64,000 bases of DNA from an uncultured bacterium. GTDB taxonomy: Bacteria > Planctomycetota > UBA8108 > UBA1146. Each line of letters begins with the position of its first letter. The first letter of the stretch is position 1. Below, one piece after another: positions 44,553 through 61,608 of the stretch. The DNA lies in assembly GCA_937876125.1 (NCBI GenBank), contig CALEHF010000264.1, positions 267-64,266 of the forward strand, written 5' to 3'. The position numbers and the translations under genes were made by a program. The notes beneath the pieces were generated by a model. That model was not told where the DNA came from. It made no database searches and saw only the letters and a program-made list of their open reading frames with translations.

Positions 44553-46070
44553 GTGCGATCGATATCGCTATTGCCGAGACCCGCGCAGACCATCTTGCTC
44601 TTTCTCTGGATCATGACTCTGTTCTCGTCTCGAGCGGACGCGACGTGGTCGATCGTGATCTGCGACTCGGAGACGAAAGAGGTCGGAATCGCCTCGGTCA
44701 CCTGCCTCAGCCAGTTCAACCTTCGAGCGATCACGCCGGTGGTCGTCGTCGGGAAGGGCGCCGCAGCGGTCCAAGCCGCAGGCGATTTCGATGGCATTCG
44801 GCGTCCCATCATCCGCACCCGGTTTCTCCTCGGGATCGCTCCCACCTCAATGCTTTCGACTCTCTCTCAAGTCGCCGGCCACGCGAGCCGTCAGTACGGC
44901 ATCGTGGACACTCAAGGAAGAACAGCGACGTTCACCGGCGGCTTGAACGCTGATTGGGCGGGCGGTGTGACGGGTGATATTGGGACGCTCTCTTACGCGA
45001 TCCAGGGCAACATTCTGGTGGGGCCATGCGTGGTGAGTGCGGTCGAGACCGCGCTCTTGAACACCCCCGGCGACCTTCCCACCAAGCTGATGGCGGGGAT
45101 GCAGGTCGCGAAAGACGCTGGCGGCGACGGCCGCTGTTCTTGCGCCGGCACGCCGACTTCGTGTGGGTGTCCCCCGGTGTCCTTCACGAAGTCGGGACAC
45201 ATCGGCTACCTCCTCGTCGCTCGGATCGGGGACAGCGAGGACCCGGTCTGCAACGCGAACGGCTGCGCCGATGGCGATTACCTCTACGCGCTCAATGTCG
45301 GCCCCCAGTCGGTGAACGCGCCCGACCCCGTCGATCAGTTGCAGGTGCTCTTCGACGCGCGGCGGGCTGAACTCGCCGGGCGACCGGACGCGCACGCGAG
45401 CACCGCGGCGATCACGGGGGGCGCGAGCGGCCCGCTACTCACCATCGCTCTCGCCGACTACGACGGGTTCGCGGTGACGATGCCCGTCACCATCACGATT
45501 GATCACACCGCCGCGAGCGCAGGTTTGAGTGCGATCGGAGCGCCGGTTGATCTCGGCGGCGGTCAGTTCGAAGTTCCTCTCACCGGCACGGAGATCCCGG
45601 GAATCGACGAGTTTCTGATCACCGTCGACGACGGGTTTCGCCCGGTGGTGCTCTCCCCGCTGCCGAGCTACTGCGCGGGATCGGTCGCGGCAGGGGCGGC
45701 CGACTGCAACGGAAACGCACTCCCCGACTTTTGTGACCTCGCGGCGGAGACCTCGGTCGATCTCGACCTCGACGGTTTTCCGGATGAGTGCGCGCTCTTT
45801 CGACGCGGCGACTGTAACGGCGACGGCGGCATCGATGTCGCCGATGCGATCTTCTCCCTCGAGCACCTCTTTGGTTCCGCCGCCCCCACAGTCAACTGCC
45901 GCGAGGCATGCAACACCAACGGCAGCGCGACCTACGACCTCGGCGATCCGATCACGCTTCTCAGTCACCTCTTCAGCGGCGGCGCCACACTCCCCCCTCC
46001 GTTCATGGAGTGCGGAGTGGATGTCCTCGTCCCGGCGATCGACTGCCAAGCGGGGACGGTATGTCCCTGA
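44553..46070 (+). CDS. Secreted DUF1028 (Ntn-hydrolase-like) protein with the dockerin-like 4-Cys C-terminal module (CTD member 2)
   Basis: Signal peptide, then TWSIVICDSETKEVGIASVTC, the DUF1028 N-terminal Thr-nucleophile motif. C-terminus FRRGDCNGDGGIDVADAIFSLEHLF...YDLGDPITLLSHLFSGG...PPPFMECGVDVLVPAIDCQAGTVCP. Confidence 0.75.
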   Translation: MRSISLLPRPAQTILLFLWIMTLFSSRADATWSIVICDSETKEVGIASVTCLSQFNLRAITPVVVVGKGAAAVQAAGDFDGIRRPIIRTRFLLGIAPTSMLSTLSQVAGHASRQYGIVDTQGRTATFTGGLNADWAGGVTGDIGTLSYAIQGNILVGPCVVSAVETALLNTPGDLPTKLMAGMQVAKDAGGDGRCSCAGTPTSCGCPPVSFTKSGHIGYLLVARIGDSEDPVCNANGCADGDYLYALNVGPQSVNAPDPVDQLQVLFDARRAELAGRPDAHASTAAITGGASGPLLTIALADYDGFAVTMPVTITIDHTAASAGLSAIGAPVDLGGGQFEVPLTGTEIPGIDEFLITVDDGFRPVVLSPLPSYCAGSVAAGAADCNGNALPDFCDLAAETSVDLDLDGFPDECALFRRGDCNGDGGIDVADAIFSLEHLFGSAAPTVNCREACNTNGSATYDLGDPITLLSHLFSGGATLPPPFMECGVDVLVPAIDCQAGTVCP

Positions 46071-46453
46071 TCCACGGGCGCCAGCGCCGCGAGGGGTCCG
46101 CCGCGGCTCGAGCGGTGATCGCGCTGAACTTCGCCTGCATGGCGGGGCTCGCGGCGGTGTTGATCTGGCTGCCGTGGAAGGCGAGCACGGCAGATTTTCC
46201 GGTGCCGCCAGCGCAGGTGGAGTTCCCCGAGGTCGAGCCGCCAACGACAACGCCACCGACTACGCCCACGCCCATGCCCACGCCTTCGATCGAGGAACTC
46301 CTCGGCGCCGATCCACCCCGAACTGATCCTCTGGGTTCTGGCTCTCCGGGAGAAACTCCTCCTCCCACGCTCGAGCCGGGTGACCCCCCTCCGCCCCCAC
46401 CGCCCAAAGAAGAGCCGAAGAAGAAGCCGATGAAGAAGAAGTACTACCGCTGA
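46061..46453 (+). CDS. Small membrane protein with a Pro/Thr-rich and Lys-rich tail (TonB-N-terminal-like)
   Basis: The ATG at 46061 overlaps the upstream stop. TM helix AVIALNFACMAGLAAVLIWL, then PPTTTPPTTPTPMPTP...PPPPPPPKEEPKKKPMKKKYYR. Confidence 0.45.
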   Translation: MSLIHGRQRREGSAAARAVIALNFACMAGLAAVLIWLPWKASTADFPVPPAQVEFPEVEPPTTTPPTTPTPMPTPSIEELLGADPPRTDPLGSGSPGETPPPTLEPGDPPPPPPPKEEPKKKPMKKKYYR

Positions 46454-46799
46454 CGTCGCCCTCACTGCACCTCATGAAACCAGGCTAAGATCACCGCACG
46501 GCGCACCTCCTGCTTACCGTGTCGCCTCCCCTATTTTGCCGTTTACCGGGAACAGAATGTGAGGATTCCATGCTGCGTCCCTCGCTCTCCTTTCCCTCTT
46601 CTCGCTCGGTGGCGTTCCCGCTCTCCCCACCGCGTTCGCCGAAGCGGGCGACCTCGCCGTTCCGGCCGCATACCCCACCATTCAGAGCGCGATCGAAGCC
46701 AGCCTCAACGACGACCGTGTCCTCGTCACTCTCGGCACGTACTTCGAGCAGCTCGTCATCACTGAGCGATCCATCGAGATTGCCGCCGACGGCGGAAGC

Positions 46800-48182
46800 G
46801 TGACCGTCGATGGCGGTGGGATCGGGGACACGATCACGGCGAACCTCGGTGCAGGATTCTCCCTGACGCTCACCGGACTCACCATCACCGGGAGCGACAA
46901 CCAACAAGAGACCGATACCCTGGGGACGGGGCTGTTAGTTTTCGGGGGATCGCTGACCCTCCGCCAGTGCAATGTGATCGGGAACGACCGCGGAGTCTTT
47001 GTGATCGGCGGATCTGGACAGCTGGTGGAGGAGTGCATCTTTTCGGATCACTGGCGCAGTGCATTGGTGTTCACTCAGGCGGATGGCTCGACGACCGTCG
47101 TCGAGAGCCTGTTCACCGAGAGCCTGTTCACCGACAATCACACCTTTAGCGTTGGCGGCGGACTCTTGATCGAGGGATCGGTCAACGGAACGACTGGCGT
47201 GGTCGTCGTTGCGGCCTGCGAGTTCGATGCGAACCTCGCCGAGTTTATCGGGGCCGGAGCGTTCTTCGGCTACCTCGGGAGCGTCCACATGACGCAGACC
47301 TTGTTCACCAACAATGTGTCCCCCGCGAATGCCGGCGCGTTGATCACGAATCAGATCGTGTCATTCCTCGCCGAAGACTGTCGATTCTTCGGAAACCTCG
47401 CCGGGTTGGGTGGCGGGGCGTTCGTCGACTCGATGCCTGGCTTGTCCGTGGAGTTCGAGCGGTGCCTGTTTGTCGACAACGATGTCACCGTTGGCGGCGG
47501 GGCCATCGCCTGCTCGATCAATGGCGGCGACGTCGTCCTGCGTCGCTGCACGATGGCCAACTCTACCTCACCCGGCGCCACCGCGGTGCGAGCCGTCACC
47601 CATCATGTGCTGATCGAGAACAGCATCATCTGGGGAAACGGACCGGGTCCTTTGTTTCAAATGCACCCGGGGGGCTCGGTGGACGTTCGATACTCGGACG
47701 TTCAGGGAGGCATCCCGGGGATCGGAAACTTCGACCTCGATCCGCTCTTCACCGACCCGGCCAATGGCTTCCAGTACTCCCTCCAGCCCGGCTACCCCTG
47801 CATCGACGCAGGGGATCCGGACCACTCCCTCGACCCCGATGGCAGTGTTGTCGACCTGGGTGCGATTCCCTTCCAGCCGAGCAGCGCCTCGCCCCTCGCG
47901 GGGATGGGTCCCCGATTCCTGCGCGGTGACGTCAACGCGGAGAGCCAAGTGGACCTCGCCGATCCGATCGCCCTGCTCAATCACTTGTTCTCGACAACAT
48001 TCTTGAGCTGTGAGGACCGTGCCGACGCGAACGACGACGGTCAGCTCGACATCGCGGATCCGATCCGCCTGTTGGGATTCTTGTTCGCGTCGGGTGATGC
48101 CCCCGCCGCTCCGTACCCGAGCTGCTGGTGGGATGGCTCAGTGGATGCGCTGCGGTGCGTTGACGTGGGCGTCTGCCCCTGA
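46800..48182 (+). CDS. Secreted right-handed parallel beta-helix protein with the dockerin-like 4-Cys C-terminal module (CTD member 3). The real N-terminus probably lies upstream, in-frame from about 46563, with no canonical start.
   Basis: Beta-helix repeats (…NDRGVFVIGGSG…, …GGGAFVDS…, …NSIIWGN…). C-terminus FLRGDVNAESQVDLADPIALLNHLF...ANDDGQLDIADPIRLLGFLF...PAAPYPSCWWDGSVDALRCVDVGVCP. The same frame upstream encodes a clean signal peptide (ASLALLSLFSLGGVPALPTAFA). Confidence 0.65.
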   Translation: MTVDGGGIGDTITANLGAGFSLTLTGLTITGSDNQQETDTLGTGLLVFGGSLTLRQCNVIGNDRGVFVIGGSGQLVEECIFSDHWRSALVFTQADGSTTVVESLFTESLFTDNHTFSVGGGLLIEGSVNGTTGVVVVAACEFDANLAEFIGAGAFFGYLGSVHMTQTLFTNNVSPANAGALITNQIVSFLAEDCRFFGNLAGLGGGAFVDSMPGLSVEFERCLFVDNDVTVGGGAIACSINGGDVVLRRCTMANSTSPGATAVRAVTHHVLIENSIIWGNGPGPLFQMHPGGSVDVRYSDVQGGIPGIGNFDLDPLFTDPANGFQYSLQPGYPCIDAGDPDHSLDPDGSVVDLGAIPFQPSSASPLAGMGPRFLRGDVNAESQVDLADPIALLNHLFSTTFLSCEDRADANDDGQLDIADPIRLLGFLFASGDAPAAPYPSCWWDGSVDALRCVDVGVCP

Positions 48183-48266: not shown

Positions 48267-51200
48267 TCACTGCACGAGGAGCGCCGGATCACCGAGCAGG
48301 ACCCAACTCCGAATCACGTCCGCGTTCTCTGGATCGTCGGCGAGTTGCTCCTGCGCGTTGCAGATCACATCGCCGATTCGGATCCCCGAGCCGAGGAAAA
48401 GACTGGAGTACAAAGCCTCCGCGAAGACCTGCTGCCTGAGAGTCGTCGTCACCGCGGTCGGTCCGAAGAAGGCAACCGCACCACCCGCCGGTTCGACGAC
48501 CAGCGCTTCCCCGAGGGATGGGGTCCCCGGGTGTTGGAAGAAACCGTTCAGGCAGTTCATGGCGATCACCAACGGGGGGGTCGGGTCGGGACTCAGGGCC
48601 GGCATGTCGCTCAGGAGAAGGATTCCCTCGTCCGCCCACTGCTGTCGGCTTCCGTGACCTGTGTAGTGGACCACCGTCGCACTCGGCCACTCGATCGTGA
48701 TGAGCTCGGTGCGGAGCGCGCTGATCGGCATCGTGTCCAACTCGAGCGAGTGTACGTTGACGCCGATCGGGAGGAGCGGCGGAATCACCGCGCTCATCCC
48801 GTCGAAGTCGTCCCCATCGTCGCCGATGAGGAGCACTCGAGGCTGCGGGAGAACCCGGCCCGGGGAGTCGTGCGCGATCGTTTTCTGGACCATCGTCTGG
48901 CACTCGAGCACGGTCGCGACAGGGAACCGACCCACGGCCAGTTCGGGGACTCCATCCCCATCCAGATCTCCGTAGTGCGCATCGGATGCTGTCTGGATTG
49001 AACCGACCTCGATGAGAGGAGTGGGCAGAATCTGCCGTGGGGAGTTGCCGAGGTGGCCCGCCGGATCGTAGGTCGCATCTCCAACGAGAAGGAGGAATGC
49101 CGGGCCCGGAGGACGTGCCCACTCGAGCGCGTTCTCGATGAATCTCTCAATCGCGTCAGAGGTGGGTCGCCCCCCGTCGAAGCGGTCGTAGATCTCCTCG
49201 AGTGAGACCACGGCGGTTCGCAGCCCCGTTGCGCGTCTCAAGGCCTCGAGCGGAAGGATTTCCGATCGGAACGCGTCGGGGCAAATCGCGATCCAGTCGG
49301 CATCGAGGGCCGCCCGGAGAGTCGTTTCTGTGCCGCGCGATTCGAGAGAGACCGCACCGCGCGCCGCGGCATCCGTGAAAGCCTCCACTACCCCACCGTG
49401 GGGAAGCGTGCACTCCACCGCCCACTCGGCCGGCGAGATCGAACTGACCGCCGCCCCGACGATCCGTCGAGGTTCATCGGTTCCGCTCCGCTGATAGACG
49501 GATATCGCATCGCTCGTGAAACCCTCGAACCGCACCGTGCTGCCTCCCGCGATCCGGGCGCGAAGGCGATCGGCTGCCGCGCTGTACAGCCGGGGATAGG
49601 TCACCCGAAGCGTATCGAGAAAGACGACGTCCGGCGTGTCGAGCAACTCCTGCTCGAGAGTGATCAGGTGAGAGCCGTTCGACACGAGCCCGGCGGGCAC
49701 CGAAAAGGTACCGCAATACGGGCCAGAGCCGTTCGCGGTCGCGACTCCGATCTCGACCCCATCCCAGAGGACGCGAGTGAGATGGTCCAAGGGGGCGAGA
49801 CGGTCCTCGCTCCACCCCTCGAGCCACAACTCCACCAGAGTCGGGGTGGCGGCGGGGGCCACCGCAGCCAGTTCGACGAGGAGTTCGAGAGAACCCGGGC
49901 TCGCGAGAAACTCGTCGAACCAGTGATCGCGCCCCGCACCATCGGCGAGGGACAGAACGTAAATGTCCTCTGCGGAGAACTCGATCCTGTGTGGGGATGC
50001 CCCGACGACGGCTGTAGAGAACGCCGGAGCTCCGGCGATCTCTGGAATTCGAGGAGGGGTGAGCCCGGGAGCGACGAGATCGAGGACGTAGACATCGAGT
50101 TTCGTCTCGGGGTGAGTGAACGGTACCGCGAGAAAATCGATCGCATCCCCCGGGTCGAACGAGCCGTCTGCGCCGCCGACGATGAAGATCGGGCACGCCT
50201 CATCATCACGCCGGAGTCGGAAGCGAGTCGGATCGACGCCGACGGGAAATCCTGCGGCAGCAAGGTCGGAGTGCCTGAGGCGGAGCATCCCGTCGGGCTC
50301 CACTCGGATGCGCAACGCCGCAGAACTCCCCGGAGCGCTCGCCTGGGTGAGCGCGGACGACGAGGAAGCAGTCGGGGTCGGCGTGGGGACCGGGAGCTGG
50401 GTCCCAACCCTCCTTCGGGAAGTGCGCGGGAACCCCATCTCGCTCAACTTCTGGGCAGCGCCATCCATCTGGTTCGGCCCGGCCGCCCTTCCCCTCGCGT
50501 GCTTTGCGACTGTGTTCCCCAGCTGAGACCGCCGCCCCGCCTGGTCGATCTCGATCAATCGGTACTGTGCGCCTGGGTGAGCACCCGGCAGGTCATCGAC
50601 CAAGCGGTAGCTCGCCCCGCCCGGGGCCACTCCGCGGGCGGGTATCAGCTCTGGTCCGATGGGGGTGAACGACCCGCCCGAAGCGGCGCGCTCGAGCTGG
50701 AATCCCAAGCAGCACCACTCGGCAGATGTCTCCCACCCGAGGACGACGTCAAGAGCCCCGGCGGTGGCGGCGAAGGTGTTCAACCGAGCGGGGGTGGAAG
50801 CGCCCCAGATGATGAAACCAGGGGTCACGGTCCCGCCACCGTTGTCGTCCTCGTTCGCAGCGCCGCCGAAGTCGCCACCGTAGGGGTCAAAAGTGATCGC
50901 AGCGGTCGCGGCCTGGGTCACCACGTTGTTCGCTAGATTGCTGTTCGGATCCTCGAAGTAGACCGACGCAAGAGTGACGGCGTTGTCGTTATCCATGATT
51001 GTGAGCAGGGTGCCCCCGGGCGCGCCATATGCGAGATACACGTCATCGAATTGCGTGAGTGCGGTGACCGAGGCGCTGTCGGTGATCTGGAGTCCGAACG
51101 CGTCCATGTACGCGAAGTAGGCACTGCTCGCGTTTAAGATCCCTTCGGCGTCGACGGCAAAAGAATAGCGCCCGGGCGTCGCAGTGTCGGAGGCCGTGAC

Positions 51201-54200
51201 CTGCGCGAGGTCGTTTGCCGTGCCGATCGCCTCGAACATCCCATCGACGGTCAACACCGTGGAAGCGCCGAGCAGAAGCGCCGAACCCGGCTCGAGATCA
51301 AGTGTCCCGGTCACGCCCACGTTGTTGTCTACTTGCAGAGTATCCGCGTCATCGACTTCGAGTTCACCGGAGAGGATCGCGAGGTCGTTGGTCACCGTCA
51401 CGTTGCCACCGGTCAGGGCGACTTGCGCCCCGGTGTCGATCTCGAGATTGAAGTATGTCGCCACCAGGATCGTTCGCCCCGCGGTGGTGTCGTCGTAGAC
51501 GACGGTCCCGGTTCCCGCCGTAAACGTTCCGAACGAGGTGACCGCGCCCCCGAGTTCGAGCCGACCCGACCCAAAGGTTGTGGCACCACCGGTCATGTTG
51601 ATGGTCCCACTGACGTCGAGGGTGCCGCTGGTCATCGTCAGGGTTCCGGGAACGACTAGAGCTCCCGCGTTGGTTGCAGTTCGGGTCCCCTTGTCGATTT
51701 CCAAGTTTTGGTAGCTCAAGATGGGGACAGTCTGGTCGGAGATCTGATCGTCGAACTCCACGGTTCCAGTGCTCGGTGTGAACGTGCCGAGGGAGGTGAC
51801 CGCGTCCCCCAGCTGCAGGCGCCCGGCTCCACTGAAGGTAACGCTTCCCCCAGTCGCGTCGAAGGGCCCGTTGGCATCGACCGTGCCGGTGGAGATCGTG
51901 AGGGTGCCGTTCACGTCCGTCGCCCCGGTGACGGTGACGGTGTTGCTTCCGGCTGCGAAGGTTCCCGAAGTGACCGTGAGGTCTCCGGCGATGGTGAGGC
52001 TCCCGCTCGTGCTCACGGTCCGAGTGCCGCAATCGATCTCGAGATGGTCGTAGGAGACGTTCGCCACGGAGCGGTTCGCAGTCGAGTCGTCGTACTCGAC
52101 CGTCGACGCAATCGCCGTAAATGTACCGAGCGAGGTGACCGTGTTTCCGAGTTCGAGGCGGCCCGCACCAGTGAAGGTGACCGCGCCGCCGGTCGCATCA
52201 AAGGGACCATTCGCATCGAGGGCTCCCGTGGAGATCGTCAGTGTCCCGTTGATGTCGGTGGTTCCACCCACTGTGAAGGTCCGCGTTCCCAACGCGGCCG
52301 TACCAGCAGTCACCGTGAAGTCGTTGGTGATCGTTGCATCCACCGTCGAGCCCATGACACCCGAGGATTTGTTGATGACCAGATCGTACACGGTGAGGGT
52401 CGCGCCACCCTCGTGGTCGAGGTTCTGAGACTCTGTGCCGTTGAAGTTCAAGGTCCCCGCGGTCATCGAGAAGGTTCCCGAGGATGACACGATGAGATCA
52501 CGGTCGAAGTTCATCGTGTTCGAGGTGTCGATCGTGAGGGAGCCCCCTGTGTCGATGTAGATCGACCGAGCGTTTCCGGTGGTGTTCAAAATGGGGTCCC
52601 ACGTCACGCTCCCGACCAGGCAATCATCGGTGGCGGAAGGCACCGACGCGGGAGACCAGTTCAGCGCCACATCCCAGTCGGTCTCGACGCCCGAAGTCCC
52701 CCCGAGCCAAGTTCGCGTGAAGAGGGGCCAATCGATGGAACCGACGGTCCCCTCATTCTCATACACTTCGAGTCCGCCCAGGCCCGTTGGGATCACCATG
52801 TTGATGTTGATCGAAGTTCCGGCCGCCGTCTCGACGTTGTAGGTACACGTCGCGTCGAAGGAGAGTCCGACGAGCGAGTACTGGCTGCTTCCGGAATCGA
52901 GAATGCGCAAGAACGTGTCGTTGGATCCGTCGGCGTCGGGATCGACGTTCTGGAAGTTGACCCGGCGCAGGTTCGCGATGGTCGCGCCATCAGAGATCGT
53001 CAAGCCCGTCGATTCGGGGTTGAAGAACTCGAGCGAGAGGACGTTGATCGTACCCCCGCTCGACACGGTGAATGTGTAGTCGCCACTCCCATCGTTCGTC
53101 ACGGTGGGTATCGTGGTACCGGAGGCGGCAAATGTGCCCCCGCTGTTGATCGTGACGGAGGTCCCGAGCCGCAGGTCACCCCCGTCGGCGAGAAGTAGAG
53201 TCCCATCGACGGAGACCGCGCCGGTGGCGGTCACGTCCCCACCGGTTCCAATCGCGAGGGTCCCTGAGACGACGTTGGTGGTTCCGCCGACCGTGTAGGT
53301 TCCGGAGGCGGTCGCGGAGAAGCTACCGGTATCGATCTCCAAGTTGTTGTAGGTGACAATCTCAAGGGCTTGGTTTGTGGTCTGGCTGTCGTACTCAACT
53401 GTTCCACCGCCGGCGGTAAAGGTGCCCAGACTCGTCACCGTGGCTCCAATCCGGAGCCGCCCAGAGCCAGAGCAGATCACCGAGCCCCCGGTGACGTCGA
53501 GATCACCGTCAACGTCCAGGGTGCACCCCCCGTTGATCGTGGCTGAGTTGTCGATGTCGATGTCGCTAGAGACGGTGACGGTCGTGCTCGAGGTGATCTG
53601 TAGATCGTAGAAGTCGCTCACGCCAGGGGTGGTGACCAGGCTCGTTCCCCCGCCATCGAACGTGACCCGCTGGGTACCGCTCAGGAAGGTCCCGCTATCG
53701 ATCCAGTTTCCGGCGATGAAAGTGCCCCCATCGGGATCGGTGTCGTCCCACGTCCCATTGATCTGCACGTCACCTGCGATGTCGAGAGTGGCATTCACAC
53801 GCTCGAGTGTGCTGCCGGCTTGGATGGTCAAATTGCCGCTCAGAGTGGTGGTGAAGCTTCCGCCCGTTGTCGTGAGCTCTGCGGCCCCTCGCGAGATCAC
53901 CAGGTCGTTACAACTGACATTCCCATTGAAGATGACAGTGTTGCCGGACCCGTTCTCGTTGAGAACGATGTCTCCGGCGAAGGAAATGTCTCCAGAAATC
54001 TCATCGAAGCCGCCGCCGGCAAACGTGATGGAGCCGCTCGCAGTGGAGAGAAGAACGTTGCTCGCTTGCGGGGTAAAATGCCGATAGATCTTGAGGTCGA
54101 ATGTCGTCAGATCGAGGGTCCCGCCCGAGTTGATCGTCAACGATTTGCAGCGTGCGCCGTTGGCATTGAGGCTCGGATAGTTGGTGAGCCCGGAAGGGAT

Positions 54201-54713: not shown

Positions 54714-55772
54714 ATGCTCCGTTTTCTCCCTTCGCTCCCCCGTTGTCTTGCCATGTTCGGGAGTGTGCTCGTCGCCATGAGCCTCACTTCCTGCGCCTCT
54801 TTCGATTCACAACCCCCCCGACCGAGGTGGGCGATCGCGATCCATGGAGGGGCGGGCGTTCCCGCGGACCTCGCGAATCCGGAAGATTACTCCTCTGCGA
54901 TCGAGCGAGCTCTCCAGCTCGGGCAGTCGATCCTCGCCGATGGAGGGACGAGCCTCGATGCTGTGACCGCCGCGTTGGTTCTTCTTGAAGATGACCCGCA
55001 CTTCAACGCGGGTCTTGGCGCGGTGCTCACCAGTGAGGGGGCCTGTGAGCTCGACGCATCGATCATGGATGGCGAGACGCTGAACTGTGGTGCGGTCGCT
55101 TCTGTGACGACGGTGAAGAACCCGATCCTGCTCGCCCGCGCTGTCATGACCGCATCGAAGCATGTGTTTCTCGCCGGCGGGGGCGCCGAGCAGTTCGCGC
55201 GCGAACAAGGCTTCTCACCGGTCGAGAACGACTACTTCAAGACGGAGCACCGACGGAAGAGCCTCGAGCGAGTGAAGGAAGAGGAGCAGCGTGCGAAGAG
55301 CGCTCAGTCTGCCGTCGACCTCTGCGAGCCGGTGTACCTCGGCACGGTCGGTGCGGTTGCGCTCGATCAAGACGGCCACCTCGCCGCCGCAACCTCGACC
55401 GGCGGTCTGACCAACAAGCGCTACGGACGCGTCGGGGATTCCCCGATCATCGGGGCGGGAACCTTCGCCGCCGACACGTCGTGCGCGGTTTCCTGCACTG
55501 GGCAGGGAGAACTCTACATCCGCCATGGGATCAGTCACGCGCTCTCGGCGCTGGTCGAACATGCGGGGCTCTCGCTCGAAGCGGCCGGGGCCCGTCTGAT
55601 CCACCAGGTGCTCCCAGAGGATTCGGGCGGCCTCATCGCGATCGATCGCCACGGCAACATCACGATGCCGTTCAACACCGTCGGCATGCACCGCGGGTGT
55701 GCGGATGCGAACGGGCGGTTTGAGGTGTTGATCTACAAGGAGCCGATCATCAACGCGACGGTCAGCCCGTGA
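54714..55772 (+). CDS. iaaA: Isoaspartyl peptidase / L-asparaginase (Ntn-hydrolase, plant-type asparaginase family), lipoprotein
   Basis: Lipobox LVAMSLTSC. Family motifs AIAIHGGAG and the nucleophile GTVGAVALD. Confidence 0.85.
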   Translation: MLRFLPSLPRCLAMFGSVLVAMSLTSCASFDSQPPRPRWAIAIHGGAGVPADLANPEDYSSAIERALQLGQSILADGGTSLDAVTAALVLLEDDPHFNAGLGAVLTSEGACELDASIMDGETLNCGAVASVTTVKNPILLARAVMTASKHVFLAGGGAEQFAREQGFSPVENDYFKTEHRRKSLERVKEEEQRAKSAQSAVDLCEPVYLGTVGAVALDQDGHLAAATSTGGLTNKRYGRVGDSPIIGAGTFAADTSCAVSCTGQGELYIRHGISHALSALVEHAGLSLEAAGARLIHQVLPEDSGGLIAIDRHGNITMPFNTVGMHRGCADANGRFEVLIYKEPIINATVSP

Positions 55773-56767
55773 ACGGGTGGCTCACAGCTGGCGCGCGGGC
55801 GATGGTGTTCGCGTTGTTGCTCGCTCTGGGTTGCGCGGGAGGACCCGAGGGATCTGCGCGCGCTTTGCCCCTTGCGAGTGAGACGGCGACGACCTCTCCC
55901 CCACCGAACCTTGGCCCCATCACCCCGCGGGCCGGCAGTGGTCCCCTGATGGTGGTCGGGGGTGGCAAGATCCCCGATGCGGTGCGGGCGCGCTTCATCG
56001 AACTCGCGGGAGGCCCCGAAGCACAGATCCTCATTTTCCCGCAGGCATCCGAGCGCGAAGATGCGGGGAGCGGGCACCTGAAAGCTTGGAAAGAGAGTGG
56101 CGCGAACAACGTCGCGATCGCAGAACTCATCGATCCGGTGAGGATCGCGCGAGACCTCGTCCGGGCGGACGCGATCTGGTTCGGTGGCGGAAGTCAGAAT
56201 CGTCTGATGGCTGCGCTCGAAGCTGCAGAGTGCGTCGAAGCGCTCAGGCGCCGTCACCAGCAAGGCTGTGTGTTCGGCGGAACCAGCGCGGGGGCGGCGG
56301 TGATGTCGCAAGCGATGCTCACCGGCGATGCTCACACAGATCGTCTCGAACCCGGCACAACCGTCATCGGCAAAGGGCTCGGGTTGTGGCCGGGGGTGAT
56401 CGTCGATCAGCACTTTCTCCGCCGCCGCCGCTTCCTCAGACTCTTCGCAGCGGTGCTGGATACGCCGGAGCTCGTCGGTGTCGGGATCGATGAGGGTACA
56501 GCGGTCCTGGTCGAGGATGGGTCGTGGGAGGTGATCGGCGGGAGTCCCGTGTTGGTGATCGACGCGCGGGGGGCGGAAGTGTGGGACGCAGAAGTGTCGG
56601 ACACAGAAGTGTCGGACGCGGAAGTGTCGGACGCAGAAGTGTCGGACGCAGAAGTGTCGGACGCAGAAGTGTCGGACGCAGGGGTGAATGAGGAGCGAGC
56701 TCCCTTCCGCGCGGAGGATGTGCGATTGCACGCACTGCCGCCGGGGGTGCGGTGGGTGGCGCGGTGA
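55769..56767 (+). CDS. Cyanophycinase-like peptidase S51 family lipoprotein with a C-terminal (AEVSD)7 repeat
   Basis: Lipobox LLALGCAG. S51 motif GGG..N and the catalytic-Ser box FGGTSAGAAVMS. Overlaps the iaaA stop by 4 nt. Confidence 0.75.
   Translation: MNGWLTAGARAMVFALLLALGCAGGPEGSARALPLASETATTSPPPNLGPITPRAGSGPLMVVGGGKIPDAVRARFIELAGGPEAQILIFPQASEREDAGSGHLKAWKESGANNVAIAELIDPVRIARDLVRADAIWFGGGSQNRLMAALEAAECVEALRRRHQQGCVFGGTSAGAAVMSQAMLTGDAHTDRLEPGTTVIGKGLGLWPGVIVDQHFLRRRRFLRLFAAVLDTPELVGVGIDEGTAVLVEDGSWEVIGGSPVLVIDARGAEVWDAEVSDTEVSDAEVSDAEVSDAEVSDAEVSDAGVNEERAPFRAEDVRLHALPPGVRWVAR
56576..56680. repeat. In-frame 15-bp tandem repeat x7 (gaagtgtcggacgca) encoding (AEVSD)n near the cyanophycinase-like C-terminus
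   Basis: Seven head-to-tail copies at 56576, 56591, ... 56666, the first two with single mismatches. Confidence 0.9.
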
Positions 56768-57320
56768 GGGGGTGAGCCATAGCGAAGGAGCCGAGCGGCG
56801 ATGTCCCCACCCCAAGCGACAAGAGAGGTACGGAACCTCAACACTCTTCTTTCCCCTCAAGAGCGTCACGAACCTGACGAGATGGTCGTTGGTGCGAGGT
56901 TCTCGGGCAAGCGCAACGGGCAAGGTTCGCGGGACCTAACAGCCCGTTCTCACAACTCTCGATCGCATCGATCCCCCCGAGTCCGCCGGGCGGACTCTGC
57001 CGCCAAGTCACAGGACACATCGTCAAAGGACACATCACCCGTCCGGCGCCAGGCGTACGCGGGTCCGCCAAGCGGAATCCGATCTCGGAAGGCGTGACGA
57101 TCGGCCGTGAAACGCGAGATCGGCGCGACTTCGGCTCCACAGCTCGGGTAGGTGGAGGGGCGGGTGCGAGAGGCATAGTTGTTCGTGCGCTGGATCCCTG
57201 GCACAATCCCCCGACTTGGGCTCCAGCGAGAGACGAACCGAGGAATCAGCCATGGGGGGGATCATGATCGCGACGACTTCATCTTCTGCGACTGAACTTT
57301 TCACGACGAAATCCGAGCCG

Positions 57321-58724
57321 ATGGGTCAGCGCCGAACATCCAACCGCCGACGGTCTCTGCTCCTCACCATGCTTGCTGCCACAGCACCGATGTTCTTCGG
57401 CACGACCGCTTTCGCGATGGACTACCTCAACGTTTCGGTGAAGTACATTCTCAGCGCAACCGGCCAGAGGTCGAGCGGAGCCTACTCCACCGACGCGAGC
57501 ATTGTTCAGGTGATGGCCGGGGCGAACCAAGTCTTGGCGAGCAACAACGCCAGCTTCCGCCTCTACCTCGATGAGATCGTCGATGTGGCCGGGCTCTCGA
57601 CCTACTTCGATCTGGATACGGCTGACCAAGATACGCTCGAAAACCTGGTCCGAAACAGTGGCATTTACGGCTGGCGTTCGGACTGCATCAACTTCTACGT
57701 CGTGAACACTCTGAGTTCAAGCGCAGGCGCACTGGGCGGTGCCTGCTCTTTCCCGATGAGTCATGAGATCATCACGATCAACAATCAGGGAATTCTGAAC
57801 GGGCCGGTCGGCTGGTTGCACGAGATCGGCCACTATCTCAGCCTCACCCACACCTTCGAATCCTGCCATCTCCCCGGGTCCCCCGATTCCGATCCGGATG
57901 TTTGTACCGAAGCGGGTGCGACGCACACTGGATTTTGCGGCGACGTCCAAGTGCGCGCGGACGTGTGCGATGACCAAATCAACGTGATGAGCTATCACTC
58001 GTTCAACTTTGCTTCGGGCGATCTCACTTCTTGCCAGCTCAGCCACATGCAGAACGAGTACATGACCCTGAGCAGGACCGCGGTCGTGTCGGTGGACGAT
58101 GGTTTTGAGCCGAACGATACGTGTGCCGCTGGCGTCATCATCGGCGCCGGAGTGTATGCGAATTTGGTCTCCACGACCGACAAGCTGGACTGGTACCGGG
58201 TCTCGGTCCCCAGCGGCGCGACCCTTTCGGTCGTCGTCGACAGCAACCCCCTGTTCGGTTCAGCGGTCGCTGCCGCTTTCTCGAGTTGCCCGCTGACCGT
58301 GCCGCCGCTTTCGACTCCCGGAGTCTGGTCACAAAGCCTCAGCCAGACGGCAGGGGGAGGAGCTCAAGAGTTTCAAGTCGCGGTTTCCCCGACCAGCGAT
58401 TCTGATGGCCGGAGCGAGTACACCATGACGCTCTCGATTGCGGGAGCCACTTGCGACATGCCCTTCGTTCGAGGTGACCTCAACGGCGACAATTCGATTC
58501 AAGTGATCGATGCGATCATCGGGCTCGAGTTTCTGTTCCTGGCTGGCGCCCTCGAGTGTCGCGACGCCGCTGATTTCAACGACGATGGCCAGGTTCAGAT
58601 CCTCGACATCATCTCGGAGCTCACCTATCTCTTCCTCGGCGGGGCGGCACCCGCTCCCCCCGGTCTCGTTTGCGGACCTGACCCGTCGGCGGATTCCATC
58701 GACTGCTGTGTTGGTTGTCCATAG
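57321..58724 (+). CDS. Secreted M43 (cytophagalysin/pappalysin-like) zinc metalloprotease with a PPC domain and the dockerin-like 4-Cys C-terminal module (CTD member 4)
   Basis: Signal peptide. HEIGHYLSLTHTF matches the M43 HEIGHxLGLxHTF zinc site. A PPC-like FEPNDTCAAG...DWYRVSVPSGATLSV follows. C-terminus FVRGDLNGDNSIQVIDAIIGLEFLF...FNDDGQVQILDIISELTYLF...PAPPGLVCGPDPSADSIDCCVGCP. Confidence 0.75.
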   Translation: MGQRRTSNRRRSLLLTMLAATAPMFFGTTAFAMDYLNVSVKYILSATGQRSSGAYSTDASIVQVMAGANQVLASNNASFRLYLDEIVDVAGLSTYFDLDTADQDTLENLVRNSGIYGWRSDCINFYVVNTLSSSAGALGGACSFPMSHEIITINNQGILNGPVGWLHEIGHYLSLTHTFESCHLPGSPDSDPDVCTEAGATHTGFCGDVQVRADVCDDQINVMSYHSFNFASGDLTSCQLSHMQNEYMTLSRTAVVSVDDGFEPNDTCAAGVIIGAGVYANLVSTTDKLDWYRVSVPSGATLSVVVDSNPLFGSAVAAAFSSCPLTVPPLSTPGVWSQSLSQTAGGGAQEFQVAVSPTSDSDGRSEYTMTLSIAGATCDMPFVRGDLNGDNSIQVIDAIIGLEFLFLAGALECRDAADFNDDGQVQILDIISELTYLFLGGAAPAPPGLVCGPDPSADSIDCCVGCP

Positions 58725-58848: not shown

Positions 58849-61608
58849 CTACGGATACTGCCCACAGTCGAGCGTGTCGAGGTCGGTCGGGTCGGGGCCC
58901 ACGCTGGGGAAGGGCGCCGCGGGCGCGGTTCCCCCGGTGAACAGATACGCGAGGAGATAGACTGCGTCTGCTAGGTTGGGAGACCCGCTGTCATTCGCGT
59001 CGATCGCATCGAGACAGCCGACGCTTGTGCCGCTGAACAGATAACTGAGAATCATCACCACGTCCGCGAGATTGACGGCACCGCTCCCATTCGCATCGCC
59101 GCGGAGAAATGGGATCTGCGGAATCGTCAGCAGCTCGACGAGAGCCCCCATCAGCTGGTCGCGAGTGGTCGTGGTGTTGAACAGCCCACCAAATTCGAAG
59201 CTCGCTCCGACGGTACGGTAGTTCGCCGCCTCGCGGTAGATCGCGACGTCGTAGATCGCGAAGGGGCCGTTTGTGAGCAACGAGACTGCGGGGGGAAGCG
59301 GGGCGAGTTCGTCGATGAACGAGTTCTCGCCACCGTAGGGCATCGAGACGAACGAGAAGTCGACAGTCCCGACGTTTTGACCGGTGATCGTGTCGAGGTC
59401 GTTCAAGCCGTCGAAAAAGCCATCGATCGAGAAGAGCGGGTGCAACGTCGTCGCTGGGTCGAACGCCCAGGTATCCGCACCTTCGAGGTAGAGCGCGCTG
59501 CCGCCGAAGTCATTGGTCAAGTATTCGACCAGCGGAATCGCTTCCGCTTCGGTGAGCACGTGGTTCGAGGGAGACACCCCGAGGTTGACCCAGATCCGCT
59601 CGAACTGATCGAGACTCCCACCGGCGGAGATGTCCTCGACCGAGATCACCGACTTGCCATTCGCGATCAGTGAGTTGACCAGAGCCAAGCCGCCGTCGAT
59701 CCCTCCCGCAGCGTCGGGGGGAGACCAGACGAGATCGGTCGCGCCGTTGGTGACGAATGCGACACAGACCCTGCGTGGCGACGCAACGCCGCCGTTCATC
59801 CCAAGGATTGTGTAGGGGTGACTTCCCGCGGAGACCGCCATGTCGACGAAACTGGTCGTCGCGCCCGTGAGGGTCACCACGGGCAGACCCCCCCGAGAGA
59901 TCTCGAAGAATTCGTAGCTGTCGGGGGTGCTCCAGCTGAGAGTCACGTCGCTGCCCACCACGGTACAGTCGAAGGTGGCGACCGGGTTCGGCGCGGTTGC
60001 GAAGTCGAGCAGGACACGCAGATCGAGGCGACCCCACCCCATGAACTGGTCCCAACCCGGAGTGTCTTCGCCCGAGGGGCCGACCTGATCGGCACACGCC
60101 GAAGTGAGCATCGCGCGCACCTCTACCGAGGTGAGATCGGGGCGTAGTGAGAGCAGCAGACCCGCAGCGCCCGCGACGTAGGGACACGCCGCCGAGGTGC
60201 CGTTGAACTCGGGAATGTAGTCCCCTGGGTCCCGGCCCGTGGGCCCGACGATGTCGGTGGTCTGAAGTTTCACTCCCGGCGCAATCAGATCGAGCTCGAG
60301 TCCGTGGTTGCTCCCCCAAAAGGTCTCGCCGTCGCAGGAGGTCGGACTTTTCCGTTCGTCGCAAGGGCTCGAAGCCCCGACTGCGATCACCTCTGGGTAC
60401 TTCGCAGGGTAGACAATCGGGCCGTTGGTGTTTCCGGCGGCGAAGACGAGCACGCACCCGAGGCCGCCGCGTCCGACCGCCAGGGAGTACTGCAATGCGG
60501 ATTGAAGTGCGCTCGAAGGCGGAATCCCCCCCCATGAATTGGAGAGGACATCGGCGCCGGCGTCGGTCGCCCAGGTGATCGCGTCGATTTGCCATGCGAG
60601 CTCCGACCAATGGTCGGCGTAGCCGATCCGCACCGGCATCACCGTGGCGTTCCAACAGACTCCCGCGATTCCGATGCCGTTGTTCCCGGCGGCGGCAGCG
60701 ATGCCCGCGCAGGCGGTCCCATGTTCATCGTCGGGGAGCGCGTTCCCCGGAGAATTTCCCGGTGAAAGTTGGTCGGTCGCTTCGTAGCCGACACCGAGGC
60801 GCGGTGACAGATCGGGGTGTGTGAAGTCGACCCCCTCGTCGAGGATCGCAATCTTTATGCTGGAGACTCCGGTGCCGAGGTCCCAGGCGAGCGGCGCGTT
60901 CATGTCCGCCCCTGCGATCCAACCGGGGGTCTGCGCAGTGTTCTCGAGTGCCCATTGCGTCGGGAAGAGGGGATCGTTGGGCACGCTAAGAGACGGCAGG
61001 TGCACGATGAAGTTCACCTCAGCGGAGGCGACCTCCGGCCAGGCAGCGATCTCGCGAGCGCGTGCGTGGCTCCCGGTGCCCGGGCCGTCGATGGCGACGT
61101 GCAGGATCGGGGTCAGTCCAGGGAACTCGCGGATGAAGCGCGCGCCAGTCGCGGCGAGACGCTCGATGACCGATGCGGTGTCGGCGCCGCGTTCGAGGAC
61201 GACGATGAGTTCCGGCGCGGGGACGAGGGGGACGCCGTCGAAGTCGCGAATTTCGCTCGCGAAACGTACCCCTCTGGTCGAATGTAGACGCGCGATCGCG
61301 CGATCGAAGTCCTCCCCAGAGAGCACCGTCCCGAAGTCGATGAACCAGAGGCCGCGGTAGCCTTTTGGGGTTGCCTGGGGACCCGATGTCGATAAGAGCT
61401 CAGCGATCCTCGCGAGCGTGCCATCGACCGTCTCCGGAAGGACCTCATTGTTCTCGCCGACAAGGATCGCAATCTGCGATGGGATGCGGTGCCCCGGCAG
61501 GGCTGCGTCTGAGTGCCCCGCGGTCGCAGATTCTGCGGCGGAGCTCGAACGAGGTGCGGTGAGGCACACGACAAACCCTAGGAGCAAAATCAGCGAGCGA
61601 GGAGTCAT
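58849..61608 (-). CDS. Secreted subtilisin-like S8 serine protease with the dockerin-like C-terminal module (CTD member 5; lacks the 2nd and 4th Cys)
   Basis: Signal peptide. Catalytic triad boxes AILDEGVD, HGTACAGIAAA and GTSAACPYVAGAAGLL. C-terminus FLRGDANGSGAVNLADVVMILSYLF...ANDSGSPNLADAVYLLAYLF...PAAPFPSVGPDPTDLDTLDCGQYP. Confidence 0.85.
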   Translation of the reverse strand: MTPRSLILLLGFVVCLTAPRSSSAAESATAGHSDAALPGHRIPSQIAILVGENNEVLPETVDGTLARIAELLSTSGPQATPKGYRGLWFIDFGTVLSGEDFDRAIARLHSTRGVRFASEIRDFDGVPLVPAPELIVVLERGADTASVIERLAATGARFIREFPGLTPILHVAIDGPGTGSHARAREIAAWPEVASAEVNFIVHLPSLSVPNDPLFPTQWALENTAQTPGWIAGADMNAPLAWDLGTGVSSIKIAILDEGVDFTHPDLSPRLGVGYEATDQLSPGNSPGNALPDDEHGTACAGIAAAAGNNGIGIAGVCWNATVMPVRIGYADHWSELAWQIDAITWATDAGADVLSNSWGGIPPSSALQSALQYSLAVGRGGLGCVLVFAAGNTNGPIVYPAKYPEVIAVGASSPCDERKSPTSCDGETFWGSNHGLELDLIAPGVKLQTTDIVGPTGRDPGDYIPEFNGTSAACPYVAGAAGLLLSLRPDLTSVEVRAMLTSACADQVGPSGEDTPGWDQFMGWGRLDLRVLLDFATAPNPVATFDCTVVGSDVTLSWSTPDSYEFFEISRGGLPVVTLTGATTSFVDMAVSAGSHPYTILGMNGGVASPRRVCVAFVTNGATDLVWSPPDAAGGIDGGLALVNSLIANGKSVISVEDISAGGSLDQFERIWVNLGVSPSNHVLTEAEAIPLVEYLTNDFGGSALYLEGADTWAFDPATTLHPLFSIDGFFDGLNDLDTITGQNVGTVDFSFVSMPYGGENSFIDELAPLPPAVSLLTNGPFAIYDVAIYREAANYRTVGASFEFGGLFNTTTTRDQLMGALVELLTIPQIPFLRGDANGSGAVNLADVVMILSYLFSGTSVGCLDAIDANDSGSPNLADAVYLLAYLFTGGTAPAAPFPSVGPDPTDLDTLDCGQYP

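What the first reader, a model, noticed from the sequence alone, without database searches (positions are those of the whole stretch)
44553..61608. Five otherwise unrelated secreted proteins share one roughly 88-aa dockerin-like, 4-cysteine C-terminal module; candidate novel cargo-tagging/anchoring system
A Calx-beta protein, a DUF1028 Ntn-hydrolase, a beta-helix protein, an M43 metalloprotease and an S8 subtilase have unrelated catalytic bodies. All five end with the same architecture:
- F-x-R-G-D-x-N-x-[DS]-G-x-[IV]-[DN]-[IL]-x-D-x-I-x-x-L-x-x-L-F (Ca-loop 1)
- a Cys, then x-x-A-x-D-x-N-D-[DS]-G-x-x-x-I-x-D-x-I-x-L-L-x-x-L-F-x-G-G (Ca-loop 2)
- a Pro-rich P-x-x-P-[FY]-P-x-C-G-x-D-P-x-x-D-x-x-x-C-x-x-x-x-C-P at the extreme C-terminus.
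Module coordinates are 12337-12600, 45798-46067, 47916-48179, 58464-58721 and 58852-59109(-).
The S8 copy has lost Cys2 and Cys4 together, which suggests C1-C3 and C2-C4 disulfides. The two loops resemble type-I dockerin/EF-hand calcium sites, but the F-x-RGD lead-in and the disulfide-stapled Cys-Pro terminus are not part of canonical dockerins.
Functionally this parallels the T9SS CTD carried by gingipains and S8/M43 proteases in Bacteroidota: a conserved C-terminal tag on a secreted degradome. Four of the five carriers sit in one roughly 17-kb island together with a C25 gingipain-like giant protein. No cohesin-like partner or dedicated processing enzyme is recognisable in the window, so the receptor or sorting machinery is unknown.
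Basis: partly seen in the sequence, partly recalled or inferred. Interest (0 to 1): 0.8.

Follow-up and report, generated by a model that had tools for sequence, protein, structure and literature searches.

The report
Disulfide-stapled dockerin tag on secreted proteins
Five unrelated secreted proteins of an uncultured Baltic Sea planctomycete end in the same 88-residue module, which is a divergent dockerin with a cysteine-stapled tail; in related genomes it sits next to cohesin domains, so it most likely plugs proteins into a cellulosome-like surface complex rather than defining a new sorting system.

Summary
Exactly five 86-90-aa modules lie at the stated coordinates, each ending at a stop codon. 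An HMM built only from outside sequences finds them at E=4e-29 to 8e-36.

The module is a real, distinct and conserved subfamily:
- The exhaustive search gave 22,408 representative proteins at E<=1e-10, nearly all named ones from Planctomycetota MAGs.
- The Pro-rich/Cys end is conserved.
- Cys co-occurrence supports the predicted C1-C3 and C2-C4 disulfides.

It is still a dockerin. The AlphaFold model (pLDDT 90.6) matches only cohesin-bound dockerins in the PDB.

The "missing" partner exists, though not in this window. In related genomes the module alternates with cohesin domains (signal peptide-[Doc-Coh]n-Doc). In a genome sample, 33 of 35 cohesin-bearing ORFs also carried the module.

The tag is neither strictly C-terminal (87%) nor degradome-specific (56 Pfam families among 70 carriers). 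It is not like a T9SS CTD.

Dockerin-tagged peptidases on cohesin scaffolds have already been hypothesised for Planctomycetes (the "planctosome") and for Cloacimonadota. The cysteine-stapled extension appears undescribed and is mostly missed by Pfam.

Verdict: a new variant of a known kind, of moderate interest.

The parts
11251..12603 (+). Carrier 1: secreted protein with a weak Calx-beta match; module at 12337-12600 (4-Cys form)
   Evidence: ORF. Pfam Calx-beta 18.4 bits (below threshold) and Dockerin_1 12.6 bits. Module HMM E=8e-36 with the external HMM. Signal peptide ending ...TPAHA|GG.
44553..46070 (+). Carrier 2: DUF1028 (Ntn-hydrolase-type) protein; module at 45798-46067 (4-Cys form; second Ca loop degenerate, NTNGSATYDLGD)
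   Evidence: DUF1028 94.2 bits. No Dockerin_1 hit at all, but the module HMM gives E=6e-30. Signal peptide ...SSRADA|TWSI would expose the Thr.
46800..48182 (+). Carrier 3: right-handed beta-helix protein; module at 47916-48179 (4-Cys form). The true start is probably near 46573, behind an apparent 1-nt frameshift
   Evidence: Beta_helix 48.3 bits. Module E=5e-31. The signal-peptide h-region and AFA|EA site lie in frame upstream of the first canonical start.
57216..58724 (+). Carrier 4: zinc metalloprotease (Reprolysin_5 / Peptidase_M43 borderline); module at 58464-58721 (4-Cys form, shortened end CCVGCP). Start uncertain; the public call is 490 aa
   Evidence: Pfam 27.3 and 23.1 bits. Module E=4e-29. 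Public gene call. RRR-containing signal peptide.
58849..61608 (-). Carrier 5: S8 subtilase; module at 58852-59109 (2-Cys form, C1 and C3 only)
   Evidence: Peptidase_S8 176.5 bits. The tail is the only one passing the Dockerin_1 gathering score, at 25.1 bits. Module E=6e-31. The exact protein is present in ENA/NCBI contigs.
48267..54386 (-). Context, not a carrier: giant secreted protein with a G8 domain and a C-terminal Peptidase_C25 domain; no module
   Evidence: Pfam. No module hit. Signal peptide.
54714..56767 (+). Context, not carriers: Asparaginase_2 (54714-55772) overlapping by 4 nt with Peptidase_S51 (55769-56767)
   Evidence: Asparaginase_2 363 bits. Public gene calls with PF03575.

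Best explanation
The 88-aa module is a divergent dockerin.
- It has two near-identical EF-hand-like Ca2+ loops, each followed by a helix.
- A roughly 25-residue Pro-rich C-terminal extension folds back onto the core. It is pinned there by a disulfide between the inter-repeat Cys (C1) and C3. In the 4-Cys form a second disulfide, C2-C4, is added.

Proposed mechanism:
1. The carriers are exported by their N-terminal signal peptides.
2. The module folds with Ca2+ and oxidises outside the cytoplasm.
3. It then binds non-covalently to cohesin domains. In this lineage the cohesins are carried by secreted proteins that themselves bear the same module (signal peptide-[Doc-Coh]n-Doc, Coh-X-Doc, enzyme-Coh-Coh-Doc).
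4. The result would be a cellulosome-like, possibly self-assembling, extracellular complex that gathers a broad set of secreted proteins. In this window those are mostly peptidases and hydrolases.

What is shown and what is inferred:
- Shown: the family, its conservation, the predicted dockerin fold, the Cys coupling, the fusion to cohesins in relatives, and the positional statistics.
- Inferred: actual cohesin binding, Ca2+ dependence, the disulfides, and that this particular organism has the cohesins.
For: - Fold: the AF2 model has pLDDT 90.6 and pTM 0.80. The Foldseek PDB top 30 are all dockerins from cohesin-dockerin complexes (probability about 1.0 for the top hits, falling to about 0.6 at rank 30; TM-to-target 0.34-0.85, 0.6-0.85 for single-dockerin chains; about 55-79 aligned columns).
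- Sequence: Dockerin_1 is the only Pfam family hit. The two repeats have the same consensus, D-x-N-x-D-G-x-V-D-I-[SA]-D-A-I-x-x-L-x-Y-L-F.
- Partner, from proteins: the spacers between modules are cohesins.
  - Pfam Cohesin scores 46.2 bits (P0127) and 37.6 bits (P0142), both above the 24.1 threshold.
  - The spacer profile hits only cohesin chains in the PDB; the best is 1aoh at 5e-6.
  - An independent profile from genome loci hits 3l8q at 6.7e-9. It also matches the first profile with hhalign probability 98.6%.
- Partner, from genomes:
  - In 80 genome loci, 27 contain a cohesin.
  - 33 of 35 cohesin-bearing ORFs carry the module.
  - 9 of 13 genomes with three or more sampled loci show a cohesin.
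- Scaffold proteins have signal peptides followed directly by the first module.
- Disulfides: the dominant patterns are C-C- (195) and CCCC (157). C2/C4 odds ratio is 379 and C1/C3 is 52. The DSSP bridge residues are exactly 32 and 81.
- Published precedent for the concept: PMC6461901 and PMC8542988.
Against: - No cohesin lies in this 64-kb window, and the rest of the organism's genome could not be examined.
- Binding is not demonstrated for any member.
- Pfam's Cohesin model detects only some of the cohesin-like domains.
- Many non-cellulosomal dockerins have no known cohesin partner.
- The Cys statistics are not corrected for relatedness, and the sample is biased towards multi-copy proteins.
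- Model coordinates could not be inspected, so the S-S geometry is indirect.
Confidence: 0.7

Rival explanations
1. A stand-alone Ca2+-binding stability or solubility module, or a ligand or cell-wall anchor, that does not work through cohesins. It would be a dockerin-fold domain that binds something else, such as polysaccharide, an S-layer or outer-membrane component, or simply Ca2+. The disulfides would harden it for the extracellular milieu.
For: - Carriers far outnumber detectable cohesins: 156 modules against 39 cohesins in the sampled loci.
- 17 of 38 sampled genomes showed no cohesin in the fetched flanks.
- There is no cohesin in the window.
- Tandem arrays of modules alone exist, such as P0126 and P0145.
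- Tiny signal-peptide-plus-module proteins exist, such as P0021, P0088 and P0119.
Against: - An excess of dockerins over cohesins is normal in cellulosomal organisms (established knowledge).
- Only +/-10 kb per locus was sampled.
- The near-exclusive coupling of cohesins to this module (33 of 35 ORFs) and the regular Doc-Coh-Doc-Coh-Doc architecture are hard to explain without an interaction.
Confidence: 0.2
2. A C-terminal export or sorting tag. It would be analogous to the T9SS CTD or to exosortase/rhombosortase signals: recognised by dedicated machinery and then cleaved or covalently attached.
For: - 87% of complete carriers have the module within 8 aa of the stop.
- The cargo is diverse and secreted.
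- The extreme end is conserved (C-P), and carriers cluster in islands.
Against: - The module also occurs directly after the signal peptide, internally, and in tandem arrays of up to about 7 full modules (up to 10 detected stretches per protein).
- Its predicted fold is a helical dockerin, not the beta-sandwich of a T9SS CTD.
- There is no hydrophobic transmembrane segment or basic tail after the motif.
- No sortase- or PorU-like gene is seen in the window.
- NCBIfam sorting-signal models do not match.
Confidence: 0.05

Closest known systems
Type I dockerin (Pfam PF00404) of clostridial and ruminococcal cellulosomes
   Same: - Duplicated segment of about 22 residues, each with a 12-residue EF-hand-like Ca loop plus a helix.
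- Internal two-fold symmetry.
- Predicted fold superposes on solved dockerins (rmsd 1.6-3 A).
- Usually C-terminal on secreted enzymes.
- Co-occurs with cohesins.
   Different: - Only borderline Pfam scores.
- Conserved F-x-R lead-in (R 99%).
- Invariant Cys in the inter-repeat linker.
- A conserved extension of about 25 residues, P-P-x-P-[FY]-P-x-C-G-x-D-P-T-x-D-x-L-x-C-x(5)-C-P, with one or two inferred disulfides.
- Gram-negative-type Planctomycetota hosts.
- The cargo is not plant-cell-wall enzymes.
- It is frequently N-terminal, internal or tandem.
'Planctosome' hypothesis (Andrei et al. 2019, ISME J, PMC6461901)
   Same: - Planctomycetes.
- Cohesin/dockerin modules unrelated to cellulose.
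- Dockerin-bearing Zn-peptidases (M12B reprolysin-like).
- Adaptor proteins with a signal peptide, an N-terminal dockerin and a cohesin.
- LTD, P-domain and TSP3 domains occur in the same protein set.
   Different: - It was described for freshwater Nemodlikiaceae (Phycisphaerae). Whether their dockerins carry the Cys-stapled extension was not checked here.
- Here the carrier set is a general exoproteome (56 Pfam families among 70 carriers).
- Alternating Doc-Coh repeat proteins are prominent here.
- The window itself shows only the enzyme side.
Cellulosome-like complex of Ca. Stygibacter (Cloacimonadota; Williams et al. 2021, PMC8542988)
   Same: Signal-peptide enzymes, including an S8 peptidase and a C25 gingipain-like peptidase, with C-terminal dockerins, plus a cohesin scaffoldin. 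It is proposed to act in protein and polysaccharide degradation.
   Different: - A different phylum.
- The scaffoldin there is anchored by a T9SS-type CTD.
- In this window the C25 protein has no dockerin.
- No Cys-stapled extension was reported there.
T9SS C-terminal domain of Bacteroidota
   Same: A conserved tag of about 80-100 aa at the C-terminus of many unrelated secreted proteins, including S8, M43 and C25 peptidases.
   Different: - The CTD is an Ig-like beta-sandwich. It is recognised by the T9SS translocon and removed by PorU.
- The present module is helical and Ca-binding, is not restricted to the C-terminus, and occurs in tandem.

Membership tests
Dockerin (type I-like, PF00404 / dockerin fold) | Two tandem segments, each with a 12-residue D-x-[ND]-x-D-G-...-D calcium loop followed by an alpha-helix | tested here: met
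   Alignment and column frequencies: D5/N7/D9/G10/D16 and D37/N39/D41/G42/D48 are conserved at 75-100%. Helices at 15-25 and 47-57 in the model. The DUF1028 tail has a degenerate second loop.
Dockerin (type I-like, PF00404 / dockerin fold) | Scores above the Pfam Dockerin_1 gathering threshold (22.9 bits) | tested here: inconclusive
   Isolated tails score 25.1 (S8, passes), 21.1, 20.7 and 15.5 bits, with no hit for the fifth. 12 of 70 outside carriers hit at E<=1e-4. Multi-copy relatives pass easily.
Dockerin (type I-like, PF00404 / dockerin fold) | Three-dimensional dockerin fold | tested here: met
Dockerin (type I-like, PF00404 / dockerin fold) | Ca2+-dependent binding to a cohesin module | not testable with these tools
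   Support is indirect only: the module is fused with or adjacent to cohesin domains in relatives.
Cohesin-dockerin system ('planctosome'-type) in this organism | Cohesin-bearing protein encoded in the same genome | not testable with these tools
In 38 sampled related genomes, 21 showed a cohesin within the fetched flanks.
Cohesin-dockerin system ('planctosome'-type) in this organism | Dockerin-tagged secreted peptidases | tested here: met
   The S8 and M43/reprolysin-like carriers have signal peptides and the module.
T9SS C-terminal domain | Ig-like beta-sandwich CTD located strictly at the C-terminus | tested here: not met
   The predicted fold is helical dockerin. 13% of complete carriers have the module away from the C-terminus, and tandem arrays exist.
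Exosortase/rhombosortase-type C-terminal sorting signals (PEP-CTERM, GlyGly-CTERM, MYXO-CTERM) | Short motif followed by a hydrophobic transmembrane helix and a basic cluster at the extreme C-terminus | tested here: not met
   The tails end ...C-x(2-5)-C-P, or ...CGQYP in the S8 tail, with no hydrophobic stretch. There was no NCBIfam match.

The most novel reading that the evidence does not exclude
- The secreted signal peptide-[Doc-Coh]n-Doc proteins polymerise head-to-tail through their own modules. This would form an extracellular protein lattice on marine and brackish Planctomycetota.
- A whole exoproteome, not just glycosidases or peptidases, is displayed on that lattice through the disulfide-stapled dockerin.
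- The 2-Cys and 4-Cys forms are two orthogonal specificity classes, for scaffold-scaffold and enzyme-scaffold contacts, analogous to type I and type II dockerins.

The Cys forms do partition:
- Cohesin-less C-terminal carriers: 4-Cys 62, 2-Cys 18.
- Multi-module scaffold proteins: 4-Cys 65, 2-Cys 174.
Probability: 0.25. Interest if true: 0.7.

Novelty: new variant of a known kind. Interest (0 to 1): 0.45.

Why it matters
- If these modules do bind their co-encoded cohesins, marine, brackish and groundwater Planctomycetota would own one of the largest cohesin-dockerin systems known. The exhaustive search gave tens of thousands of representative proteins.
- That system would organise a general exoproteome rather than cellulases.
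- The module is largely invisible to standard annotation: most carriers get no Dockerin_1 call. Secretome and 'degradome' analyses of these abundant particle-associated bacteria therefore miss it.
- A small, disulfide-stabilised, Ca-dependent dockerin with matching cohesins would also add an orthogonal pair for designer-scaffold biotechnology.

Tried and rejected
1. The search for related loci with alignments A2 and A1 failed because no stretch was conserved enough. It worked with a four-sequence alignment, A4.
2. The search for homologous proteins with the cohesin profile A3 returned nothing, because of the word-index limitation. No scaffold protein therefore became eligible for structure prediction or contig look-up.
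4. The afdb50 library is not installed, so presence in UniProt or in cultured species was not tested.
5. Peer et al. 2009 (PMC3035643) is not held.
6. My signal-peptide heuristic was too permissive: 87% of carriers against 50% of controls. It counts only as weak support.
7. No close relative of the window's organism was among the 80 loci. The best were ClpC at 52% and S8 at 43% identity, so genome-level co-occurrence could not be shown for this species.
8. A weak module-HMM hit at 36550-37353(-) (E=0.12) and one at 23866-24051(-) (E=1.7e-3) lie in non-coding junk frames and were rejected.
9. NCBIfam gave nothing for the tails.
10. The idea that the roughly 300 aa between the S8 domain and its tail hide cohesins was rejected. 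That stretch aligns to the pre-cohesin part of the L011 ortholog, and no cohesin HMM hits it.

Full report
**1. Observation**

Translating the five coordinate sets gives the tails exactly as described. Each runs to the last codon before a stop (ORFs).

- The tails are 44-47% identical to the first one, with 20 invariant columns: F1, R3, G4, D5, N7, D16, L21, L24, F25, C32, N39, D48, L53, L56, F57, G60, P66, D73, C81 and P88.
- An HMM of the five, searched against all six frames of the window, finds only these five.
- An HMM built solely from 119 external homologs finds the same five full-length at E=4e-29 to 8e-36. The next best hit is E=1.7e-3 in a junk frame.
- The carrier bodies are unrelated to each other: DUF1028, Beta_helix, Reprolysin_5/M43, Peptidase_S8 and a weak Calx-beta.
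- All five have signal-peptide-like N-termini by eye.

**2. Source organism**

- The exact proteins occur on ENA contigs of sample ERZ964660 (project PRJEB22997, the Baltic Sea metagenome series) and on a 64,372-bp NCBI contig.
- The window's ATP synthase beta subunit is 78-93% identical to proteins that, where named, are all from 'Planctomycetota/Planctomycetes bacterium' MAGs.
- The left half of the window is ordinary chromosome: F-ATPase, a ClpC-like ATPase, a hybrid histidine kinase and PspA.

**3. What the module is**

- Pfam sees only Dockerin_1, and weakly. The isolated tails score 25.1 bits (S8, above the 22.9-bit threshold), 21.1, 20.7 and 15.5 bits, and one gets nothing. The match covers only the first 46-56 residues.
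- NCBIfam has nothing for the tails.
- An AlphaFold2 model of the first tail, built with 33 homologs, is confident: pLDDT 90.6, pTM 0.80, and pLDDT 87-91 across residues 61-80 of the extension.
- Foldseek against the PDB returns only dockerins from cohesin-dockerin complexes in ranks 1-30. Probability is about 1.0 for the top hits, TM normalised to the target is mostly 0.6-0.85, and rmsd is 1.6-3 A over about 55-79 columns. Below rank 30 the hits are noise.
- The core is therefore a dockerin. The last 20 or so residues are an addition with no counterpart in solved dockerins.
- The two Ca-loop/helix repeats share the same consensus, which is the internal symmetry typical of dockerins.

**4. How widespread it is, and whether the Cys-Pro end is conserved**

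- The word-indexed search gave 802 hits. Those that carry a name are mostly from Planctomycetota MAGs, with a few labelled Thermoanaerobaculia. Typical query coverage is 92-100%.
- The sequences show the same P-P-x-P-[FY]-P-x-C-G-x-D-P-T-x-D-x-L-x-C-x(5)-C end.
- The exhaustive search of 1.84 billion representatives found 37,853 proteins at E<=1e-3, 22,408 at E<=1e-10 and 511 at E<=1e-30. Some of the weaker ones are probably ordinary dockerins.
- Column frequencies over 477 modules are P66 97%, G71 95%, D73 95%, T75 81%, D77 87%, L79 79%, C32 96% and C81 94%.
It is conserved.

**5. Disulfides**

- Among 396 modules with a recognisable G-x-D-P anchor, two patterns dominate: C1+C3 only (195) and all four Cys (157).
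- C2 and C4 are present or absent together (odds ratio 379, p=3e-82). C1 and C3 are likewise coupled (odds ratio 52, p=1e-9).
- In the AF2 model the only two residues that DSSP assigns to a beta-bridge are 32 (C1) and 81 (C3).
- Caveats: the counts are not corrected for relatedness, and the model coordinates could not be inspected.
- The 2-Cys form is not a decayed copy. It is the majority form in multi-module scaffold proteins (174 against 65), whereas cohesin-less C-terminal carriers are mostly 4-Cys (62 against 18).

**6. The partner**

The top 150 representatives are all multi-module proteins with 2-10 detected copies. A recurring plan is a signal peptide followed by [module + spacer of about 170-190 aa]n + module.

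The spacer is a cohesin:
- Pfam Cohesin passes its 24.1-bit threshold in P0127 (46.2 bits) and P0142 (37.6 bits), and is borderline in others.
- 5 of 10 isolated spacers hit Cohesin.
- A profile of 10 spacers hits 27 PDB sequences, all of them cohesins. The best is 1aoh at 5e-6, nearly full length.

A genome scan adds independent evidence. It returned 543 confirmed sites, and the best 80 loci came from 38 MAGs, nearly all Planctomycetota.
- 27 of the 80 loci contain a cohesin-like domain.
- 33 of the 35 cohesin-bearing ORFs also carry the module.
- 9 of the 13 genomes with three or more sampled loci show a cohesin.
- A second profile, made only from these loci, hits cohesin structures (3l8q at 6.7e-9; 26 of 28 hits are cohesins). 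It also matches the first profile at 98.6% hhalign probability.

Architectures include Coh-X-Doc (about 480 aa), enzyme-Coh-Doc, and an S8 ortholog of the window's subtilase carrying two cohesins plus the module (L011).

In the window itself no cohesin is detectable with any of the three profiles, although the same profiles hit 17-44 ORFs in the loci. A co-distributed partner family therefore exists. Its presence in this particular organism remains unshown.

**7. Position and cargo**

- In the genome sample, 128 of 147 complete carriers (87%) have the module within 8 residues of the stop, and 140 are single-copy.
- The remaining 19 mostly carry it at about residues 45-190 of the open frame, which is directly behind the signal peptide.
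- Tandem module-only proteins and tiny signal-peptide-plus-module proteins also exist.
- Half of the loci have two or more carriers within +/-10 kb, so islands like the window's are common.
- Seventy randomly chosen cohesin-less carriers hit 56 different Pfam families. These include FG-GAP, Laminin_G_3, DUF1800, LTD, PKD, Kazal, endonuclease I, S8, beta-helix, penicillin amidase and FGE-sulfatase.
- The tag therefore marks a general exoproteome, not specifically a degradome. Its non-terminal and tandem occurrence argues against a terminal sorting signal.

**8. Mechanism proposed**

1. Sec (or Tat) export through the N-terminal signal peptide.
2. Ca2+-dependent folding of the two EF-hand-like loops.
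3. Oxidation of C1-C3, plus C2-C4 in the 4-Cys form. This pins the Pro-rich extension onto the helical core. It would act as a covalent counterpart of the non-covalent 'clasp' between termini described for some ruminococcal dockerins (my recollection, not tested here).
4. Non-covalent docking onto cohesins of secreted adaptor or scaffold proteins that themselves carry the module. This would allow hierarchical or self-polymerising assemblies.

Steps 1-3 are inferred from sequence and from the model. Step 4 is inferred from domain fusion and neighbourhood. Confidence that the module is a dockerin homolog is about 0.95. Confidence that it works by cohesin binding is about 0.7.

**9. Comparison with what is known**

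- Non-cellulosomal cohesin/dockerin modules are known to be widespread. Peer et al. 2009 is cited, but the paper itself is not held.
- Andrei et al. 2019 proposed a 'planctosome' in freshwater Nemodlikiaceae. It has an anchoring protein with LTD, P-domains, TSP3 repeats and a cohesin. An adaptor carries an N-terminal dockerin and a cohesin, and M12B and M14 peptidases bear dockerins.
- Williams et al. 2021 described dockerin-tagged S8 and C25 peptidases with a cohesin scaffoldin in Cloacimonadota.
- The present finding belongs to that kind of system.
- Four features appear new, as far as the searchable literature and Pfam/NCBIfam show:
  - the conserved F-x-R lead-in together with the Cys-stapled Pro-rich extension, which defines a very large dockerin subfamily;
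  - its systematic under-annotation;
  - the alternating Doc-Coh repeat proteins;
  - the 2-Cys/4-Cys split between scaffolds and enzymes.
- It is not a T9SS CTD and not an exosortase-type signal. The defining features of both were tested and not met.

**10. Verdict**

- Novelty: a new variant of a known kind.
- Interest is moderate (0.45). The system is large and the variant neat, but the central idea (dockerin-tagged secreted enzymes with cohesin partners in Planctomycetes) is already in the literature. The key functional step is still inferred.

Noticed in passing
window 54714-55772 (+) and 55769-56767 (+): An Asparaginase_2 (isoaspartyl-peptidase type, 363 bits) overlaps by 4 nt with a Peptidase_S51 (cyanophycinase/dipeptidase E family). 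The two sit between the C25 and M43 genes and may form a pair for cyanophycin or beta-aspartyl dipeptide utilisation. Neither protein has the module.
   Followed up: partly
window 46563-46800 (+): The beta-helix carrier's signal-peptide h-region and AFA|EA cleavage site lie in the gene's frame directly after a stop codon and upstream of the first canonical start (46800). An ATG ('MLR...') sits one frame over at about 46573. This looks like a 1-nt frameshift, either an assembly error or real.
   Followed up: partly
window 31722-34001 (-) and 33787-35934 (-): Two tandem paralogous ORFs of 715-760 aa share a prepilin/pseudopilin-like hydrophobic N-terminal segment (VLIMALAFS[IV]IVGTLLVGTLTTTILQAKTMRHELD) and similar bodies. 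The one scanned (31722-34001) has no Pfam match.
   Followed up: no
window 36367-38850 (+): A large ORF with no Pfam match, built of at least 8 repeats of about 40 aa that carry an 'IGSSSGQT[ER]V' motif. The real start is probably downstream at a lipobox-like 'LLSGAAFIATPGC'.
   Followed up: no
window 48267-54386 (-): A giant (2039 aa) secreted protein with a G8 domain and a Peptidase_C25 (gingipain-like) domain at its very C-terminus. It lies in the middle of the carrier island but has no dockerin-like module.
   Followed up: partly
L011 6035-10255 (+) (uncultured Planctomycetia MAG, CAZSDP010000003.1): An ortholog of the window's S8 subtilase (43% identity) continues into two cohesin domains and then the Cys-stapled module, all in one 1407-aa ORF. 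It is an enzyme that is both a cargo and a scaffold.
   Followed up: partly
P0021, P0088, P0119; P0126, P0145, P0148: Some secreted proteins consist of nothing but a signal peptide plus one module (about 120 aa), or of 3-4 tandem modules. They could act as competitors, cross-linkers or caps of a cohesin network.
   Followed up: no
modules across loci and database hits: The 2-Cys (C1+C3) form predominates in multi-module and cohesin-containing scaffold proteins (174 against 65). The 4-Cys form predominates on cohesin-less C-terminal carriers (62 against 18). These may be two specificity classes. The counts are not corrected for phylogeny.
   Followed up: partly
L005, L048, L065 (QNYK01, labelled 'Bacillota bacterium MAG 7'): The best-scoring genome locus (100% identical to the first sequence of the query alignment, P0007) comes from a MAG labelled Bacillota, whereas nearly all the other loci are from Planctomycetota. 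The label is probably a taxonomic mis-assignment of the MAG.
   Followed up: no
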